A stretch of DNA of 64,000 bases from positions 1 through 64,000 of IMG/VR virus record IMGVR_UViG_3300046694_000291; one strand, given 5' to 3'. A program made the position numbers and the translations under genes. How positions within the stretch are numbered: the stretch's first letter is position 1; each line of letters begins with the position of its first letter. This document shows, piece by piece, positions 232 to 54,395 of the stretch. This DNA comes from a virus. The notes under the pieces are model-generated. The model was not told the DNA's origin, did not search any database, and saw only the letters and a program-made list of their open reading frames with translations.

Positions 232-326
232 TGGTCCGGGCGGACTTGAACCGCCTTCTCCGGAGCGAGCTGGGAACCGACCGAACAGCTCTGCCCCGGC
301 GTCCTTCCTGTTGGACGACCTGGACC
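232..326 (-). ncRNA. tRNA-like RNA with elongated anticodon arm
   Basis: Acceptor GGTCC(A)G/CGGACC+A; D arm GTCC-AACAGGAA-GGAC; T arm GGCGG-TTCAAGT-CCGCC; anticodon arm replaced by a 7+6 bp stem with 13-nt loop TTCGGTCGGTTCC. Confidence 0.7.
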
Positions 327-364
327 GTGACCGGGATTGGGCCCCCGGCGGCCGTGAGTGTGCT

Positions 365-2381: not shown

Positions 2382-2465
2382 CGCCCCCGGCCCGACTCGA
2401 ACGGGCCGTACTCCGACGTGGACCAGATCAGTGGCGACGCACGGCCGAAGCTCTGTAGCGGAGAC
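2382..2465 (-). ncRNA. degenerate tRNA-like element
   Basis: Acceptor GTCTCCG/CGGGGGC and canonical T arm GCCCG-TTCGAGT-CGGGC; D and anticodon arms non-canonical. Confidence 0.5.
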
Positions 2466-2498
2466 GGCCGGATCAAGGCTCCGGCCGGGCCGTGGTGC

Positions 2499-3179: not shown

Positions 3180-3261
3180 GATCGGTTCCTTCCGTGGTCG
3201 GCCCTGAATGGCCTCACAGGGGGTGCGGGCGGCAGGAGCCGACCGTACCCCCGAGCGGGAC

Positions 3262-3882: not shown

Positions 3883-3969
3883 GGGGTGCTCCTTGGTCGG
3901 TTCCCGGGTGGCCGAGCGGCCGAGCCAGGGTCACGGGCCTCCCGGCCCGCGCCCTCGACTGCTGCTCGA

Positions 3970-4197: not shown

Positions 4198-4214
4198 GAT
4201 CGGTTCCTCTCGGT

Positions 4215-4577: not shown

Positions 4578-4600
4578 GGTTCCTTCTTCCGTGGTCGGCT

Positions 4601-4654
4601 GGCTCATCAGGACCGGGGTGCCACCCCGGCCGACGGGGTCGCCCCCGTTTCGCC
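4601..4654 (-). ncRNA. hammerhead ribozyme, type II
   Basis: GGC-GAAAC-GGGG(GCGA)CCCC-GTC^-GGCCGGGG(TGGCA)CCCCGGTC-CTGATGA-GCC: complete catalytic core and three stems; predicted cut between 4632 and 4631. Confidence 0.92.
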
Positions 4655-4972
4655 TCAGCTCTGCGGCTTGTGGGCGCGCAGTCCGTTCGCCCCGACCTTG
4701 CCCTCGTAGCCGCACTCGCACTTGCGGTACAGCTTCCGGGGGTTGGCGGGGACCATCTGGCCGGTGCAGTAGACGTCGGCCTTGGAGGCCTGCTCCGCGT
4801 GCGCCTTGATGTCCGAGGGGGTGCAGCAGTCGCTGCACGGGGTCCAGCTCGCGGCCTCGTCGTCGCTCAGGGCGATGGGGTCGCCGGAGGCGATGGCCCG
4901 CTTGGCGTTGGCGCAGGAGTAGCTGGCGTGGCGGTGGTCGCCGTGCGTGGTGCGGTAGAACTTCGCGCTCAT
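4655..4972 (-). CDS. small Cys/His-rich (putative Zn-binding) protein bracketed by hammerheads
   Basis: 105 aa, H-x-x-x-x-C, CSDCC and CEC motifs; AAGGAG RBS. Confidence 0.75.
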   Translation of the reverse strand: MSAKFYRTTHGDHRHASYSCANAKRAIASGDPIALSDDEAASWTPCSDCCTPSDIKAHAEQASKADVYCTGQMVPANPRKLYRKCECGYEGKVGANGLRAHKPQS

Positions 4973-4992
4973 GGTCGGCTCCTTGTGTGCCT

Positions 4993-5045
4993 GGCATCGT
5001 CAGGACCGGGTGGCGCCCGGCCGACGCCCCGAGGGGCGTTTCGCC
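4993..5045 (-). ncRNA. hammerhead ribozyme, type II (one extra U after the core)
   Basis: GGC-GAAAC-GCCC(CTCG)GGGC-GTC^-GGCCGGG(CGCCA)CCCGGTC-CTGACGA-T-GCC; predicted cut between 5023 and 5022. Confidence 0.85.
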
Positions 5046-5426
5046 TTTGGTTGTTCGTTGCGCGCTGGTCGTACGGCGGCTCCGTTGCGTCTTCGACGTC
5101 TGCCGTCTGGTCGTCCGCTCTCGGTACGCTCCCGGGTTCTCTCCGACCGCTGGTGGGTTCCGTGTGTCCCTCACCTGCCGTCGGCCGTCCGCCGTTTTGC
5201 GATCTCGTCGGGTCTGGCCTGCCGTTTTCTTGGGGAGGGTCGGTGCCCTGTCTCCGGCGGCCCCTGGGGCCGATTCGGAGGGTCCGGAGTTCCGGGTCCC
5301 TCCGGGGCCTTACCGCCTGGCCCCTTGTTCTTTAACTAAATCATAGGGCTGGATCAGGCATCTGTATAGCCCCAGGCCAACGCTCTGACCTGGGGCTACA
5401 TAATTAATTTCATGATTCTTTAGGCC

Positions 5427-8509: not shown

Positions 8510-8623
8510 GATCGGCTCCTGCTGGTCTGGTGGTCTGTGTTCGCCTTACGAGGTACAACCTACGCTGAGCAGGGCCGATCTAAACACCCCTTGGACAAGG
8601 GAGTTGAGACCGGCCCCTAATTG

Positions 8624-9553: not shown

Positions 9554-9711
9554 CCCCGGACTCCCCGGAACTTGGGCTTCAGACCCTGGAGCACGCGTGC
9601 TGCGTCCTCCAGGCCCTGCCGGTAGCCCTGCTCCTCGTCGTCGGACCCGTCGGACTCGCCCAGCCGGGCCTTCAGCTTCTCGATCGTCTCCAGGTCCTCG
9701 TCGCTCACCAT
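9550..9711 (-). CDS. small hypothetical protein
   Basis: MVSDEDLE..., overlaps both neighbours. Confidence 0.5.
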   Translation of the reverse strand: MVSDEDLETIEKLKARLGESDGSDDEEQGYRQGLEDAARVLQGLKPKFRGVRG

Positions 9712-10301
9712 CGGTCGGTCCTCCCGCTCGTGTTGCCACCGTGCCAGTTCCAGACCCAGGTCCGGCGGTTCAGGTGCTCGATCTTCGCACCCTCCCCGAC
9801 CATGCGCTCCCAGGTCCCCCAGTCGTCGCAGGGGTTGTCCGGAGGTCCCTTCGGGGTGAAGCCGCCGACGTCCCACACCAGCTCGCTCCGCACCAGGACC
9901 GTGATCGGGATGTAGTTCTGGTACCGCAACGCCTCCTCGTTGAAGGGCTGGCCCTCGAACTGCGGGAACGGGTCCCAGCCCTGTGGGACGGTGAACCACG
10001 GGTACACCATGTCGGCCCCGGTCGCCTCCGCGTGCTCCATCAGCAGCCGGACGTGGTCGGTGTTCCACTGGTCGTCATCGTCGAGGAAGGCCATCCACTC
10101 CGTGTTGACGGCCGAGGCGGCGTGGGTGCGGTTGCGGGCCGACCCGGCGCGCTCGTGGTCGATGCGGATGCTGATCGCCTCGACCGGCCGCTCCTGCTGG
10201 AGGACCGAGTCGACGGCCCGGTGCAGGTGGGTCTGGACCCGGGGCGGGATGGCCGGGATGACCGCCGTGACCCCGGGCCGCAGGTGCCGCATACGGTTCA
10301 T
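9705..10301 (-). CDS. glycosyltransferase family 2
   Basis: AVDSVLQQ, ARNR, WMAFLDDDD, DDW motifs. Confidence 0.88.
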   Translation of the reverse strand: MNRMRHLRPGVTAVIPAIPPRVQTHLHRAVDSVLQQERPVEAISIRIDHERAGSARNRTHAASAVNTEWMAFLDDDDQWNTDHVRLLMEHAEATGADMVYPWFTVPQGWDPFPQFEGQPFNEEALRYQNYIPITVLVRSELVWDVGGFTPKGPPDNPCDDWGTWERMVGEGAKIEHLNRRTWVWNWHGGNTSGRTDRW

Positions 10302-17108: not shown

Positions 17109-17277
17109 GACAGGTCCCTCCTGGGGTGCCTCATGACCCAGCAGCCCCGGGTCCGGCAGTCCGTTCCGATGCAGGCACAGAGGCCGACGAAGTCCCGTAC
17201 CTCCTGGTTGAACTTCCGGGCCGTCATCCGGAGACGTCCCCGGTGCAACTGGTGCATCGCCTTGTCCCGCGTGGTCC

Positions 17278-52541: not shown

Positions 52542-54395
52542 ATGTCCTGGTACGACGTCTTCCGGCGGAGCAGCCCCGCACTCACGGCCGCCGGACTGCC
52601 GCAGGCGCCTCAGCCCGAGGCGCTCACCGCCGCCGCCGCCCCGCCCAAGGGACCCCAGGCCCAGTTCCTCCGCCACACCGACAAGTGGCAGAACGAAGTC
52701 TGGGCCTACTACGACAACCTCGGCGAGTTCAACTTCGGGGTCGGCTGGCAGGCGTCCATGCTCAGCCGGGTACGGCTGCGCGCCGCCCGGCTCCAGCCCG
52801 ACGCCGACGAGCCGGACATCCAGATGGAGGGTCCGGCGGCCGAACTGATGATGAACTTCGGGGGCGGTGTCACCGGCCAGGCGCAGCTCATGAAGCGTCT
52901 CACCGTCGGCCTCCAGGTCCCCGGCGAGTGCTACCTGATCGGCGAGGAGCAGTCCGACAAGACCGAGAAGTGGATGGTCCGGTCGGTCGACGAGATCCGC
53001 TCCCAGTCCAAGACCTACTACGTCATGGACGAGGAGTCGGTCAACGCGGGACAGGACTGGCGGGAGATCGCCAAGAACGCCCTCGTCACCCGGGTGTGGC
53101 GCCCGCACGACCGGTACTACCACCTCGCCGACTCCCCGGCCCGCTCGGCCCGGGAGATCATGCGGGAGCTGGAGCTGGTCAACCGGAAGATCCAGGCTGA
53201 GTACCTGTCCCGGCTCGCCTCGGCCGGGCTGCTCGGTATCCCGGACGAGCTGACGTTCCCGGTGCGCGAGGAGTTCGCCGACGCGCCCAACCCGCTCGTC
53301 GCCGAGTTCATCGAGATCGCTGCCACGGCCATCGAGAAGCCCGGCACGGCCAGCTCCGTCATCCCGATCCCGATCATGGGCCCGGCCGAGGCCATCGACA
53401 GCCTCAAGCTGATCGACTTCACGCTCAAGCTGGACGAGAAGATCATCGAGAAGCGGGACAGCGCCATCAAGCGCCTGGCCACGAAGCTCGACATGCCCGC
53501 CGAGATCCTGCTGGGCATGGGCGACGTGAACCACTGGGGGGCCTGGCAGCTCGAAGAGGGCGCGCTCAAGACGCACATCGCGCCGGTGGCGGAGCTGATC
53601 TGCGACTCCCTCACCCGGGGCTACCTCAAGCCCCGGCTCGAAGCCTCCCACCAGGACCCCACCGGCTGGGTCGTCTGGTACGACATGAGCGAGCTGGCCC
53701 TCCAGCCGGACCGCAGCGCGAACGCCACCGAGGCCTACGACCGGATGGAGCTGTCGGGCTCCTCGTTCCGGCGCGAGCTGGGCTTCGACGAGGACGACAT
53801 GCCCGAGGGGGACGATCTGAAGGAGCAGGTGCTCAAGAACCTGATCCGCAACGCCCCGCAGGCAGCGCCCTCGGCCGCCAACGAGCTGCTCGGGTCCGAG
53901 GTGCTGGACGTCGGAGCCTCTTCCACCTCCGGGGCCGAGGACGAGAAGGCCGACAACGACGCCAAGCAGGCGCAGCAGGAGGCTGCCGCTCCCGGGACCG
54001 GGAAGAACGCGCCCAAGGCAGCGCCACCCGGCGGCCCTCCGGGGTCCGGAGGCGGGAAGGAGAGCACGCCTCCCGCCAAGGCCGCCGCCCAGGCCAAGTA
54101 CCTCGAACAGGCGCGCACCCAGCACATGGTCAGGTTCCCGGCCGTCGGGCACGAATGGGAGCTGATCCACCCCCAGCTCTGCCACGACCACGAGTACACC
54201 TGCCCGTACACGCACGTCGTGTCCCGGCGGGCGCCCGAGCAGGTTCCCGGATCTCCGGGCACGTACCTCGTCCACCTGGACGGCCTCGGTCTGCTGCGCA
54301 TCGACGGGCGCGCGCCGTTCATCGACACCCGGAACCTGATCAGCACCCGTCTCCGTCCCCGGGACACGAACCGGATGGAGGCCGTCCGTGGCTGA
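52542..54395 (+). CDS. portal protein
   Basis: LTAAA, WQNEVW, VWRPH...ADSPAR, NHWGAWQ; position between terminase and protease. Confidence 0.8.
   Translation: MSWYDVFRRSSPALTAAGLPQAPQPEALTAAAAPPKGPQAQFLRHTDKWQNEVWAYYDNLGEFNFGVGWQASMLSRVRLRAARLQPDADEPDIQMEGPAAELMMNFGGGVTGQAQLMKRLTVGLQVPGECYLIGEEQSDKTEKWMVRSVDEIRSQSKTYYVMDEESVNAGQDWREIAKNALVTRVWRPHDRYYHLADSPARSAREIMRELELVNRKIQAEYLSRLASAGLLGIPDELTFPVREEFADAPNPLVAEFIEIAATAIEKPGTASSVIPIPIMGPAEAIDSLKLIDFTLKLDEKIIEKRDSAIKRLATKLDMPAEILLGMGDVNHWGAWQLEEGALKTHIAPVAELICDSLTRGYLKPRLEASHQDPTGWVVWYDMSELALQPDRSANATEAYDRMELSGSSFRRELGFDEDDMPEGDDLKEQVLKNLIRNAPQAAPSAANELLGSEVLDVGASSTSGAEDEKADNDAKQAQQEAAAPGTGKNAPKAAPPGGPPGSGGGKESTPPAKAAAQAKYLEQARTQHMVRFPAVGHEWELIHPQLCHDHEYTCPYTHVVSRRAPEQVPGSPGTYLVHLDGLGLLRIDGRAPFIDTRNLISTRLRPRDTNRMEAVRG

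What the first reader, a model, noticed from the sequence alone, without database searches (positions are those of the whole stretch)
232..326. tRNA mimic whose 13-nt 'anticodon' loop is complementary to the phage's start-associated motif
Seen: normal acceptor, D and T arms, but the anticodon arm is a 13-bp interrupted stem with loop TTCGGTCGGTTCC. The loop plus the next C is the exact complement of GGGAACCGACC, found just 5' of the RBS of gene 3882-3262. Its GGTCGG core matches the CCGACC motif before several other genes. Inference: it cannot decode a codon. It may be a processing signal, a decoy for anticodon nucleases, or a guide that recognises phage translation starts. An 11-nt match in GC-rich DNA could be chance.
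Basis: partly seen in the sequence, partly recalled or inferred. Interest (0 to 1): 0.75.

Follow-up and report, generated by a model that had tools for sequence, protein, structure and literature searches.

The report
tRNA-shaped antisense RNA against phage leaders
This Streptomyces-type phage encodes a small tRNA-shaped RNA that cannot read codons; the tip of its long extra hairpin is the base-pairing partner of the private sequence that sits just before the start codon of many of the phage's own early genes, so it probably controls their translation, though nothing has been tested at the bench.

Summary
Bases 326-232 (minus strand) fold as a cloverleaf with canonical D and T arms. The anticodon arm is replaced by a 13-bp hairpin with the 13-nt loop TTCGGTCGGTTCC. 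No tRNA, tmRNA or Rfam model accepts it.

The idea behind it survives stronger tests:
- The genome has a start-associated leader, GACCA[AC]GGA ... GGAACCGA[TC]C-ATG, at 19 of 122 starts (17 of 59 leftward genes, 2 of 63 rightward).
- The loop pairs with positions -10..-1 of that leader: at least 10 bp in 6 of 122 start regions against 8 of 5300 coding windows. Only 2 of 500 shuffled loops do as well.
- There are two homologues, in an uncultured phage (G001) and in the named Streptomyces plasmid pS1D4-14.2. They keep all four helices through 9 compensatory pairs of 28.
- The longest invariant block across the three (TCGGTTCCC) lies in the apical loop. Each loop matches its own genome's leader (pS1D4-14.2: 30 of 150 starts against 11 of 5997 windows).

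Best reading (0.55): a tRNA-scaffolded antisense RNA that blocks ribosome binding. Expression, processing and direction of control are untested.

This scan has reported the same class on other DNA (seven earlier notes on Streptomyces phage-plasmids). I found nothing on it in print.

The parts
232..326 (-). tRNA-shaped RNA gene, 95 nt: acceptor, D arm, long hairpin in place of the anticodon arm, 4-nt variable region, T arm, discriminator A, no encoded CCA
   Evidence: The cloverleaf is the minimum-free-energy fold. Covariance model hits: 111.3 bits here, 102.3 bits in G001, 46.8 bits in pS1D4-14.2. Across the three members 9 of 28 pairs change on both sides and 96.3% of cells pair; 0 of 500 shuffles reach this. 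Non-coding.
273..285 (-). Apical 13-nt loop TTCGGTCGGTTCC, the proposed antisense part. TCGGTTCC plus the next C is invariant in all three members.
   Evidence: It holds the longest invariant block of the three-way alignment. Complementarity to start regions peaks only here along the element. Two G-C pairs inside the loop are predicted with high probability; the other 9 loop bases are unpaired at 0.95 or more.
260..299 (-). Long arm: 7 bp, a bulged A, 6 bp, plus the loop
   Evidence: Helix 3 has 4 pairs with changes on both sides among the three members.
301..316 (-). D arm, with A14, G18 G19 and A21 equivalents in the loop
   Evidence: 2 compensatory pairs.
239..255 (-). T arm, GGCGG / TTCAAGT / CCGCC
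   Evidence: 2 compensatory pairs.
331..348 (-). GC hairpin 4 nt upstream of the element (CCGGG-N8-CCCGG). Like hairpins precede tRNA-Trp, tRNA-Leu and the second tRNA-like element, and the homologues in G001 and pS1D4-14.2.
3180..3189 (-). Leader box GGAACCGATC at -10..-1 of gene 3179-2499: 10 bp with the loop, one of them G.U
4198..4207 (-). Leader box GGAACCGATC at -10..-1 of gene 4197-3970: 10 bp with the loop
4973..4982 (-). Leader box GGAGCCGACC at -10..-1 of gene 4972-4655: 10 bp with the loop, one G.U
9711..9721 (-). GGACCGACCGA at -10..0 of gene 9711-9550: 11 bp with the loop, one G.U
8510..8519 (-). GGAGCCGATC at -10..-1 of gene 8509-7628 (WYL-domain protein): 10 bp, two G.U
3891..3905 (-).

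Best explanation
The element is a small non-decoding RNA built on a tRNA body.

How it is made: it is transcribed as part of the leftward, non-structural operon. Its acceptor/T-arm stack and its D/T-loop elbow let the host's tRNA-processing enzymes (RNase P at the 5' end, a 3' end-maker) cut it out and keep it stable.

How it acts: the anticodon arm has been replaced by a long GC hairpin that displays a loop with the invariant core TCGGTTCC. This loop base-pairs with the phage's own start-associated leader. In this genome the main site is GGAACCGA[TC]C at -10..-1, touching the start codon. A weaker site is the CCGACC box upstream of the Shine-Dalgarno sequence. The duplex covers part of the ribosome-binding site and the whole spacer, so the most likely effect is to block 30S binding. 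That would throttle a set of the phage's early or accessory genes as the RNA accumulates.

Shown here: the fold, its conservation with compensatory changes, the leader motif, and the loop-leader complementarity and its recurrence in three genomes.

Inferred: that the RNA is made and processed, that pairing occurs in cells, and that the effect is repression.
For: Structure:
- The cloverleaf is the minimum-free-energy fold.
- Across the three members 9 of 28 pairs are compensatory and 96.3% of cells pair; 0 of 500 shuffles reach this. With two members the figures were 5 of 28, none broken.

Leader:
- GATC fills -4..-1 of 14 of 122 starts against 0.8 expected, and AAGGAAC has all 7 genome copies in start regions.
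- GACCA[AC]GGA lies in -30..-1 of 15 starts, out of 22 genome copies.
- Box 1 or box 2 marks 17 of 59 minus-strand starts against 2 of 63 plus-strand starts.

Loop-leader match in this genome:
- At least 8 Watson-Crick bp: 7 of 122 start regions against 9 of 5300 coding windows (p 2e-8).
- At least 10 bp with at most one G.U: 6 of 122 against 8 of 5300 (p 3e-7). Of 500 shuffled loops, 2 reach 6.
- Along the element, the match peaks only at the loop.
- AACCGA[CT]C has 6 genome copies: 4 are leaders, 1 is this loop.

G001 (79 kb, flanking genes only 38-46% identical in protein):
- Loop TTCTGATCGGTTC makes at least 10 Watson-Crick bp with 3 of 107 starts against 0 of 4939 windows. One of 500 shuffles matches the observed count.
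- The only 2 intergenic antisense copies of recurrent leader 9-mers lie in this loop.

pS1D4-14.2 (NZ_CP041606.1, terminase 69% identical):
- It carries a 95-nt homologue on a different tRNA body with the loop CATCCTTGGTCGGTTCC.
- At least 9 Watson-Crick bp with 30 of 150 starts against 11 of 5997 windows (p 5e-41); 0 of 300 shuffles reach this.

Across members:
- TCGGTTCCC in the loop is the longest invariant block.
- Loop GATC goes with CCGATC starts in G001 (4 against 1 CCGACC). Loop GGTC goes with CCGACC starts in pS1D4-14.2 (6 against 1 CCGATC). In this phage the loop is GGTC and both forms occur (4 and 2).
- Among GATC-type starts, CC at -6,-5 occurs in 8 of 20 in the two phage genomes with the element tested in that call (this phage and G001) against 2 of 41 in two complete relatives without it (p 0.0012).

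Other:
- A GC hairpin precedes all four tRNA or tRNA-like genes of the arm, which fits tRNA-type processing.
- Strain variants in 4 public runs show 0 changes in 232-326, against 8 substitutions and 2 indels in one contig spanning 100-449.
Against: - No expression data: no listed run holding this DNA is RNA.
- Only three members were found.
- In this genome the loop's good matches cover only 6-9 of 122 starts, so any regulon here is small. The loop lacks the part that pairs with GACCAAGGA in pS1D4-14.2.
- If G.U pairs are allowed without limit, the loop is not enriched at starts: at least 10 bp in 8 of 122 against 277 of 5300. Duplex energies at -12 or -14 kcal/mol do not separate starts from coding windows. 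At -17 the enrichment is modest: 9 of 122 against 107 of 5300, and 9 of 500 shuffles reach it.
- Two complete relatives (G004, G006) have the GATC-ATG leader at 20 of 125 and 21 of 133 starts but no such element. The leader therefore does not need this RNA.
- The 385-aa orthologue has the box in this phage but not in G001.
- Two other long-arm tRNA-like RNAs, in G004 and at pS1D4-14.2 17117-17209, show no match to starts.
- Two G-C pairs inside the loop are predicted to form.
- Gene starts are my own calls, made with a codon model plus a Shine-Dalgarno bonus.
- The three genomes are related, so their tests are not independent.
Confidence: 0.55

Rival explanations
1. Processing punctuation only. 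The tRNA-like body serves as an RNase P/RNase Z cleavage signal that splits the polycistronic transcript. The long arm and its loop have no role in trans, and the match to the leader is coincidence or shared ancestry.
For: The operon is full of processing elements: two hammerhead ribozymes, a second tRNA-like element at 2465-2382 whose middle part is not conserved in its homologues, and GC hairpins before every tRNA or tRNA-like gene. RNase P is known to cut non-tRNA substrates, including operon mRNAs (passages of PMC11143913). Two other long-arm tRNA-like RNAs have no leader match.
Against: RNase P and Z need only the acceptor/T-arm domain. Yet the long arm keeps its pairing through 4 compensatory pairs, and the loop holds the longest invariant block of the molecule on three different bodies. 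Shuffled loops almost never match the leaders: 2 of 500, 1 of 500 and 0 of 300.
Confidence: 0.2
2. Activator or private initiation adaptor. The loop-leader helix at -10..-1 takes the place of the Shine-Dalgarno helix, or opens the leader, and the tRNA body docks on the ribosome. Leader-bearing phage genes are then translated preferentially.
For: The helix lies exactly where the Shine-Dalgarno helix and spacer lie and abuts the ATG in fixed register. The scaffold has a tRNA elbow, which ribosomes bind.
Against: An arm 8 bp longer than a tRNA's does not fit a normal tRNA site (inference). The leaders keep ordinary GGAGG/GGAAGG boxes. Known loop-to-RBS RNAs repress (abstract of PMC6486639).
Confidence: 0.1
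3. A DNA-level site. GGAACCGA[TC]C is the operator of a DNA-binding protein, and the copy in the element is simply one more site, in reverse orientation.
For: On duplex DNA the orientation would not matter. Asymmetric repeated sites near gene starts are known in other actinophages; passages of PMC3203893 mention the stoperators of cluster A.
Against: The box keeps a fixed register to the ATG and one orientation, which points to an RNA-level role. The reverse copy sits exactly in the apical loop of a covarying hairpin in three genomes.
Confidence: 0.07
4. A decoy for tRNA-targeting defences, or a decayed tRNA without function.
For: Phages of this group carry several odd or degenerate tRNA-like genes.
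Against: The loop resembles no anticodon loop. All helices are kept by compensatory change, and no pair is broken between this phage and G001. The element is 76 of 95 nt identical to G001's, while the flanking genes are about 60% identical in DNA.
Confidence: 0.05

Closest known systems
C4 antisense RNA of phages P1 and P7 (Rfam family C4)
   Same: A phage-encoded small antisense RNA that is cut from a longer transcript by RNase P. PMC11143913 lists 'bacteriophage-derived antisense C4 RNA' among RNase P substrates (passages). From memory, its loops pair with the ribosome-binding region of genes on the same transcript and repress them.
   Different: No sequence or structure match: Rfam gave nothing here. 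C4 is not a full cloverleaf and controls one operon junction. Here a whole tRNA body carries one loop aimed at a leader shared by many genes. The primary paper (Hartmann et al. 1995) is not held; I saw only its reference entry.
Start-associated sequences (SAS/ESAS) of cluster K mycobacteriophages
   Same: A conserved motif in place of, or around, the ribosome-binding site. It lies immediately upstream of start codons, in one orientation, mostly at non-structural genes, and its function is unknown. The authors leave open whether a host or phage factor binds it (passages of PMC3203893; PMC12699233).
   Different: The sequence differs: their consensus is GGGATAGGAGCCC, while here it is GACCA[AC]GGA ... 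GGAACCGA[TC]C. No complementary RNA is mentioned in the passages I read. Supplementary tables were closed.
6C sRNA of Mycobacterium and Streptomyces (C-rich loop sRNAs)
   Same: [quoted passage not shown] A 10-bp loop-to-leader helix is therefore a plausible working unit.
   Different: No Rfam match. 6C is a host RNA and has no tRNA body.
tRNA-like processing signals and stable tRNA-like phage RNAs (tRNA punctuation; T4 RNA species 1 and 2, recalled)
   Same: A tRNA-shaped, non-decoding element inside a polycistronic transcript that the tRNA-processing enzymes recognise.
   Different: Those have no known antisense loop. Here the non-tRNA part is the most conserved.
Natural tRNAs with elongated anticodon stems (tRNA-Pyl, tRNA-Sec, mt-tRNA-Ser)
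   Same: A cloverleaf with a longer anticodon stem.
   Different: The review gives 6 bp as the elongated form and a 7-nt loop with an anticodon (passages of PMC7609411). This RNA has 13 bp and a 13-nt loop.

Membership tests
Decoding tRNA (ARAGORN; Rfam tRNA models) | 7-bp acceptor stem | tested here: not met
   5 bp plus an AG bulge or A.C mismatch plus 1 bp here; 6 bp in G001.
Decoding tRNA (ARAGORN; Rfam tRNA models) | D arm with the GG loop motif and T arm with a TTCRANY loop | tested here: met
Decoding tRNA (ARAGORN; Rfam tRNA models) | 5-bp anticodon stem, 7-nt loop with U33 and an anticodon | tested here: not met
   13-bp arm with a 13-nt loop; 17-nt loop in pS1D4-14.2.
Decoding tRNA (ARAGORN; Rfam tRNA models) | Accepted by the standard detectors | tested here: not met
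   ARAGORN at default settings finds 0 in the window and only Leu and Trp in the genome. Rfam gives no tRNA-type match up to E 10.
Intron-bearing tRNA | Removing the insert restores a 7-nt anticodon loop; a recognisable intron type | tested here: not met
   ARAGORN's intron mode at default finds nothing. At a relaxed threshold it forces a 12-nt 'intron' with a poor stem. In G001 excising the hairpin leaves 3 nt (sequence). No Rfam intron match.
tmRNA | tRNA-like domain plus a tag reading frame | tested here: not met
   ARAGORN -m at a relaxed threshold finds nothing. Rfam gives none.
C4 antisense RNA (Rfam) | Match to the family model | tested here: not met
   No match.
C4 antisense RNA (Rfam) | Loop complementary to the ribosome-binding region of co-transcribed phage genes | tested here: met
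   This shows it works like C4, not that it is a member.
C4 antisense RNA (Rfam) | Matured by RNase P | not testable with these tools
   Only context speaks for it: tRNA body and upstream hairpins.
Cluster K SAS | Conserved motif immediately upstream of start codons, one orientation, mostly non-structural genes | tested here: met
Cluster K SAS | Consensus GGGATAGGAGCCC (PMC12699233) | tested here: not met
   The leaders read GACCA[AC]GGA ... GGAACCGA[TC]C.
tRNA-shaped anti-leader RNA of Streptomyces phage-plasmids (this scan's earlier notes; unpublished) | tRNA body whose anticodon arm is a long GC hairpin with a conserved loop antisense to the element's own leader | tested here: met
   This phage, G001 and pS1D4-14.2.
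tRNA-shaped anti-leader RNA of Streptomyces phage-plasmids (this scan's earlier notes; unpublished) | Loop antisense to the leader GACCAAGGAA | tested here: inconclusive
   Met in pS1D4-14.2: GACCAAGGA in 26 of 150 starts, and the loop contains its complement. This phage's loop lacks that part and pairs with the second box only.
tRNA-shaped anti-leader RNA of Streptomyces phage-plasmids (this scan's earlier notes; unpublished) | Homology to the RNAs of the earlier notes | not testable with these tools
   The notes show no sequences, and sequence and relatives look-ups found no look-alike windows.

The most novel reading that the evidence does not exclude
The RNA is not a repressor but a private initiation adaptor. 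Its loop forms, at -10..-1, a helix that stands in for the Shine-Dalgarno helix, while its tRNA body docks on the small ribosomal subunit. Leader-bearing phage messages are then started by a route the host's own messages cannot use, for example when the host's start machinery is damaged or shut off during infection.
Probability: 0.08. Interest if true: 0.95.

Novelty: new variant of a known kind. Interest (0 to 1): 0.72.

Why it matters
Start-associated sequences of actinophages have had no known partner since 2011, and a 2025 survey still calls their role unverified (passages of PMC3203893 and PMC12699233). Here a conserved small RNA carries the exact complement of such a leader. One family member sits on a plasmid of a cultured strain, Streptomyces sp. 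S1D4-14. The question therefore becomes directly testable with Northern blots, leader reporters and compensatory mutations.

It would also add a new design to bacterial riboregulation: a full tRNA body used as the scaffold and processing handle for one antisense loop aimed at a whole set of genes. Annotators would also learn not to discard such 'failed tRNA' calls.

Tried and rejected
Readings rejected:
- True tRNA, tmRNA or intron-bearing tRNA.
- Protein-coding.
- Cis control of the next gene only. Its start region has 8 complementary nt here, but G001's next gene has about 5.
- A general rule that long-arm tRNA-like RNAs of this phage group carry anti-leader loops. The G004/G003 element (loop GTTTGACA) and pS1D4-14.2 17117-17209 show no peak.
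- pCQ3 (NC_013449.1) as a further member. It gave only a 17.5-bit hit, and it has another leader, AGGAGACCC, in 9 of 123 starts.

Measures that did not discriminate:
- Helices with unlimited G.U pairs.
- Duplex energies at -12 and -14 kcal/mol.

Searches that found no further member:
- Named phages and plasmids: megablast and blastn against phages; blastn against plasmids and phages with the pS1D4-14.2 element.
- IMG/VR patterns. All 8 scans are used.
- GTDB genome contigs (checked with the model).
- Model R1 on 90 sources, on 10 further loci around DUF932-type neighbours, and on 10 whole records.
- Model R2 on 151 Streptomyces genomes. Nothing at E 1e-7, but only 27 of about 3000 candidates per genome were scored, so this says little.

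Lost or blank steps:
- The single metagenome scan and one viral scan were wasted on a pattern I mis-specified: three N where two were needed. Their hits were chance or unrelated.
- No RNA holder is listed among the 24 runs that hold this DNA. The reads laid were DNA contigs only.
- The host's 16S rRNA could not be fetched. The resemblance I suspected between the leader or loop and the 16S 3' tail rests on memory and is not used as evidence.

Literature:
- Searches found no description of such an RNA.

Full report
**Where the window lies.** The window is bases 1-64000 of an 84,106-bp IMG/VR virus record. Its ends overlap by 127 nt, so it is a circular assembly. G+C is 68-71%. My codon-model gene calls give 122 genes. 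A minus-strand arm of non-structural genes runs from about 30.6 kb down through base 1 and on to 79.4 kb. A plus-strand arm holds packaging and virion genes. A DUF397 protein and a terminase 69% identical to that of Streptomyces sp. S1D4-14 plasmid pS1D4-14.2 point to a Streptomyces host. The public runs that hold the DNA are root, rhizosphere and soil metagenomes.

**The object.** The minus-strand sequence 326->232 has a cloverleaf as its minimum-free-energy fold (-48.8 kcal/mol, z -3.2).
- The D arm and T arm are canonical.
- The acceptor is weak: 5 bp, then an AG bulge or A.C mismatch, then one G-C pair.
- The variable region has 4 nt.
- The anticodon arm is replaced by 7 bp + a bulged A + 6 bp, closed by the loop TTCGGTCGGTTCC.

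ARAGORN at default settings and Rfam reject it. ARAGORN recognises the frame only at relaxed thresholds, and then with a forced arm. The stretch is non-coding. Two ordinary tRNA genes, Trp-CCA and Leu-CAA, lie about 2 kb downstream on the same strand. All four tRNA or tRNA-like genes of this arm are directly preceded by a GC hairpin. This suggests they share one way of being cut out of the transcript.

GGGAACCGACC occurs exactly at 3895-3905 (-), just before AAGGAG-N6-ATG of gene 3882-3262. On its own that is what chance gives. CCGACC is about twofold enriched before starts: 12 of 122 against 5.5 expected.

**The leader.** Listing all start regions shows a much stronger signal. Many leftward genes begin behind (C)CGACCA[AC]GGA[AG]G...GGAACCGA[TC]C-ATG.
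- GATC fills -4..-1 of 14 of 122 starts against 0.8 expected.
- GACCA[AC]GGA has 15 of its 22 genome copies in -30..-1 of starts.
- One or both boxes mark 17 of 59 minus-strand starts against 2 of 63 plus-strand starts.

By position this is a start-associated sequence of the kind described for cluster K mycobacteriophages, whose function is still open (passages of PMC3203893 and PMC12699233).

**Loop against leader in this genome.** The loop pairs with -10..-1 of the leader, either GGAACCGATC with one G.U or GGAGCCGACC.
- At least 8 Watson-Crick bp: 7 of 122 start regions against 9 of 5300 coding-sense windows.
- At least 10 bp with at most one G.U: 6 of 122 against 8 of 5300 (p 3e-7).
- Only 2 of 500 composition-matched shuffled loops do as well.

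Sliding a window along the element puts the peak on the apical loop. Results against: with unlimited G.U pairs there is no enrichment. Weak energy cut-offs do not discriminate. Only about 5-7% of starts are good targets.

**Homologues.** A neighbour protein (385 aa, phrog_1362, named DUF932 in plasmid records) led to five related IMG/VR contigs.

*G001 (79 kb).* It has a 95-nt homologue at the same place. The flanking genes are only 38-46% identical in protein and about 60% in DNA, while the element has 76 of 95 nt identical. Every helix is kept, and 5 of 28 pairs changed on both sides. Its loop, TTCTGATCGGTTC, makes at least 10 Watson-Crick pairs with 3 of 107 of its own starts (GAGAACCGATCATG) and with 0 of 4939 coding windows. 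In that genome the only two intergenic antisense copies of recurrent leader 9-mers lie in this loop.

*pS1D4-14.2.* After this scan's earlier notes pointed to Streptomyces phage-plasmids, I searched named plasmids with the terminase and found pS1D4-14.2 (NZ_CP041606.1, 98.8 kb, with portal, capsid, tape measure, ParA/ParB). Model R1 finds a 95-nt homologue at 89437-89343 (46.8 bits). It has:
- a different, more ordinary tRNA body;
- the same upstream hairpin;
- an arm of 4 bp + a 2-nt bulge + 7 bp;
- the 17-nt loop CATCCTTGGTCGGTTCC.

Its leaders read GACCAAGGAA-N3-5-(G)AGGAACCGACC-ATG. The left half of the loop is antisense to the first box and the right half to the second. The loop makes at least 9 Watson-Crick pairs with 30 of 150 starts against 11 of 5997 coding windows (p 5e-41), and 0 of 300 shuffled loops reach this.

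**The three members together.** 9 of 28 pairs are compensatory and 96.3% of cells pair; 0 of 500 shuffles reach this. The longest invariant block, TCGGTTCCC, is in the apical loop.

One loop position changes with the leaders:

| Genome | Loop | CCGATC starts | CCGACC starts |
|---|---|---|---|
| G001 | GATC | 4 | 1 |
| pS1D4-14.2 | GGTC | 1 | 6 |
| This phage | GGTC (pairs with either) | 4 | 2 |

. Among GATC-type starts, CC at -6,-5 is seen in 8 of 20 in this phage and G001, which carry the element, against 2 of 41 in G004 and G006, which lack it. These genomes are related and the genes within a genome are not independent. I read this as consistent with co-evolution, not proof of it.

**Limits.**
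- No further member turned up in IMG/VR, GTDB contigs, named phages or plasmids, or 151 Streptomyces genomes. One metagenome scan was lost to my own pattern error.
- G004 and G006 have the GATC-ATG leader without the RNA.
- Other long-arm tRNA-like RNAs of the group have no leader match.
- No RNA data exist for this DNA.
- In strain variants from four runs the element is unchanged while its flanks vary. That is weak support only.

**Mechanism.** I take the element to be a tRNA-scaffolded antisense RNA. The tRNA body gives processing and stability. The loop pairs with the leader next to the start codon and most likely hinders 30S binding, as loop-to-RBS RNAs of high-GC Gram-positives do (abstract of PMC6486639). 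The closest precedent is the C4 RNA of P1/P7, listed as an RNase P substrate in PMC11143913; its biology I recall from memory. I reached C4 before reading the scan's notes, which name the same precedent. The rivals are processing only, activation, a DNA operator, and a decoy or decayed tRNA. They are listed with their odds.

**Novelty.** Six literature searches found no description. The scan itself has reported the same class on other DNA, in seven notes that I could not compare by sequence. I therefore rate it a new variant of a known kind, antisense control of ribosome binding. It stands out for its tRNA scaffold, its regulon-wide leader, and the fact that it offers a testable partner for start-associated sequences.

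Noticed in passing
window 4593-4655 (-) and 4985-5046 (-): Two type II hammerhead ribozymes (51.2 and 43.9 bits, gathering score 37). Each ends a few bases before the leader of the next gene (4577-4215 and 4972-4655). G001 has a like arrangement.
   Followed up: partly
window 2382-2465 (-); L003 3490-3563; L004 3683-3775: A second tRNA-like element: acceptor and T arm intact, middle part irregular and not conserved in length (84, 74 and 93 nt). It is preceded by the same kind of GC hairpin and looks like a pure processing signal.
   Followed up: partly
G004 and G006 (whole records); window start regions: GATC directly before the start codon is a trait of the whole phage group: 14 of 122 starts here, 6 of 107 in G001, 20 of 125 in G004, 21 of 133 in G006. 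It is present with or without the tRNA-shaped RNA. The reason is unknown.
   Followed up: partly
genome 82451-82510 and 82098-82157 (-); window 331-348 and 2466-2486 (-): Every tRNA or tRNA-like gene of the leftward arm is preceded, 0-5 nt upstream, by a strong GC hairpin. The hairpin may protect the 3' end of the upstream message after RNase P cleavage.
   Followed up: partly
L005 7277-7368, L006 4331-4422; L155 17117-17209 (-): Other tRNA-shaped RNAs with 11-12-bp 'anticodon' arms (loops GTTTGACA and TCACCCCCGTG) on perfect tRNA bodies. Neither shows a match to start regions. Function unknown.
   Followed up: partly
This could be a second anti-RBS motif.
   Followed up: no
L157+L158 (pCQ3, NC_013449.1) 53278-53286 and 7940: pCQ3 has its own leader, AGGAGACC(C), at 9 of 123 starts (11 genome copies). 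It also has intergenic antisense copies of that leader, which I did not examine for structure.
   Followed up: no
L016 about 2230-2350; L017 about 1090-1210: Unrelated viral contigs with arrays of tRNA-like genes that have an encoded CCA and no D arm. They were hit by a mis-specified pattern.
   Followed up: no
genome 82528-83685 (-): The 385-aa neighbour (phrog_1362; 'DUF932 domain-containing protein' in plasmid records) is unusually conserved: 90% identical to G001's copy while its neighbours are 38-72%. It has 150 relatives at E <= 1e-30 in metagenomes.
   Followed up: partly
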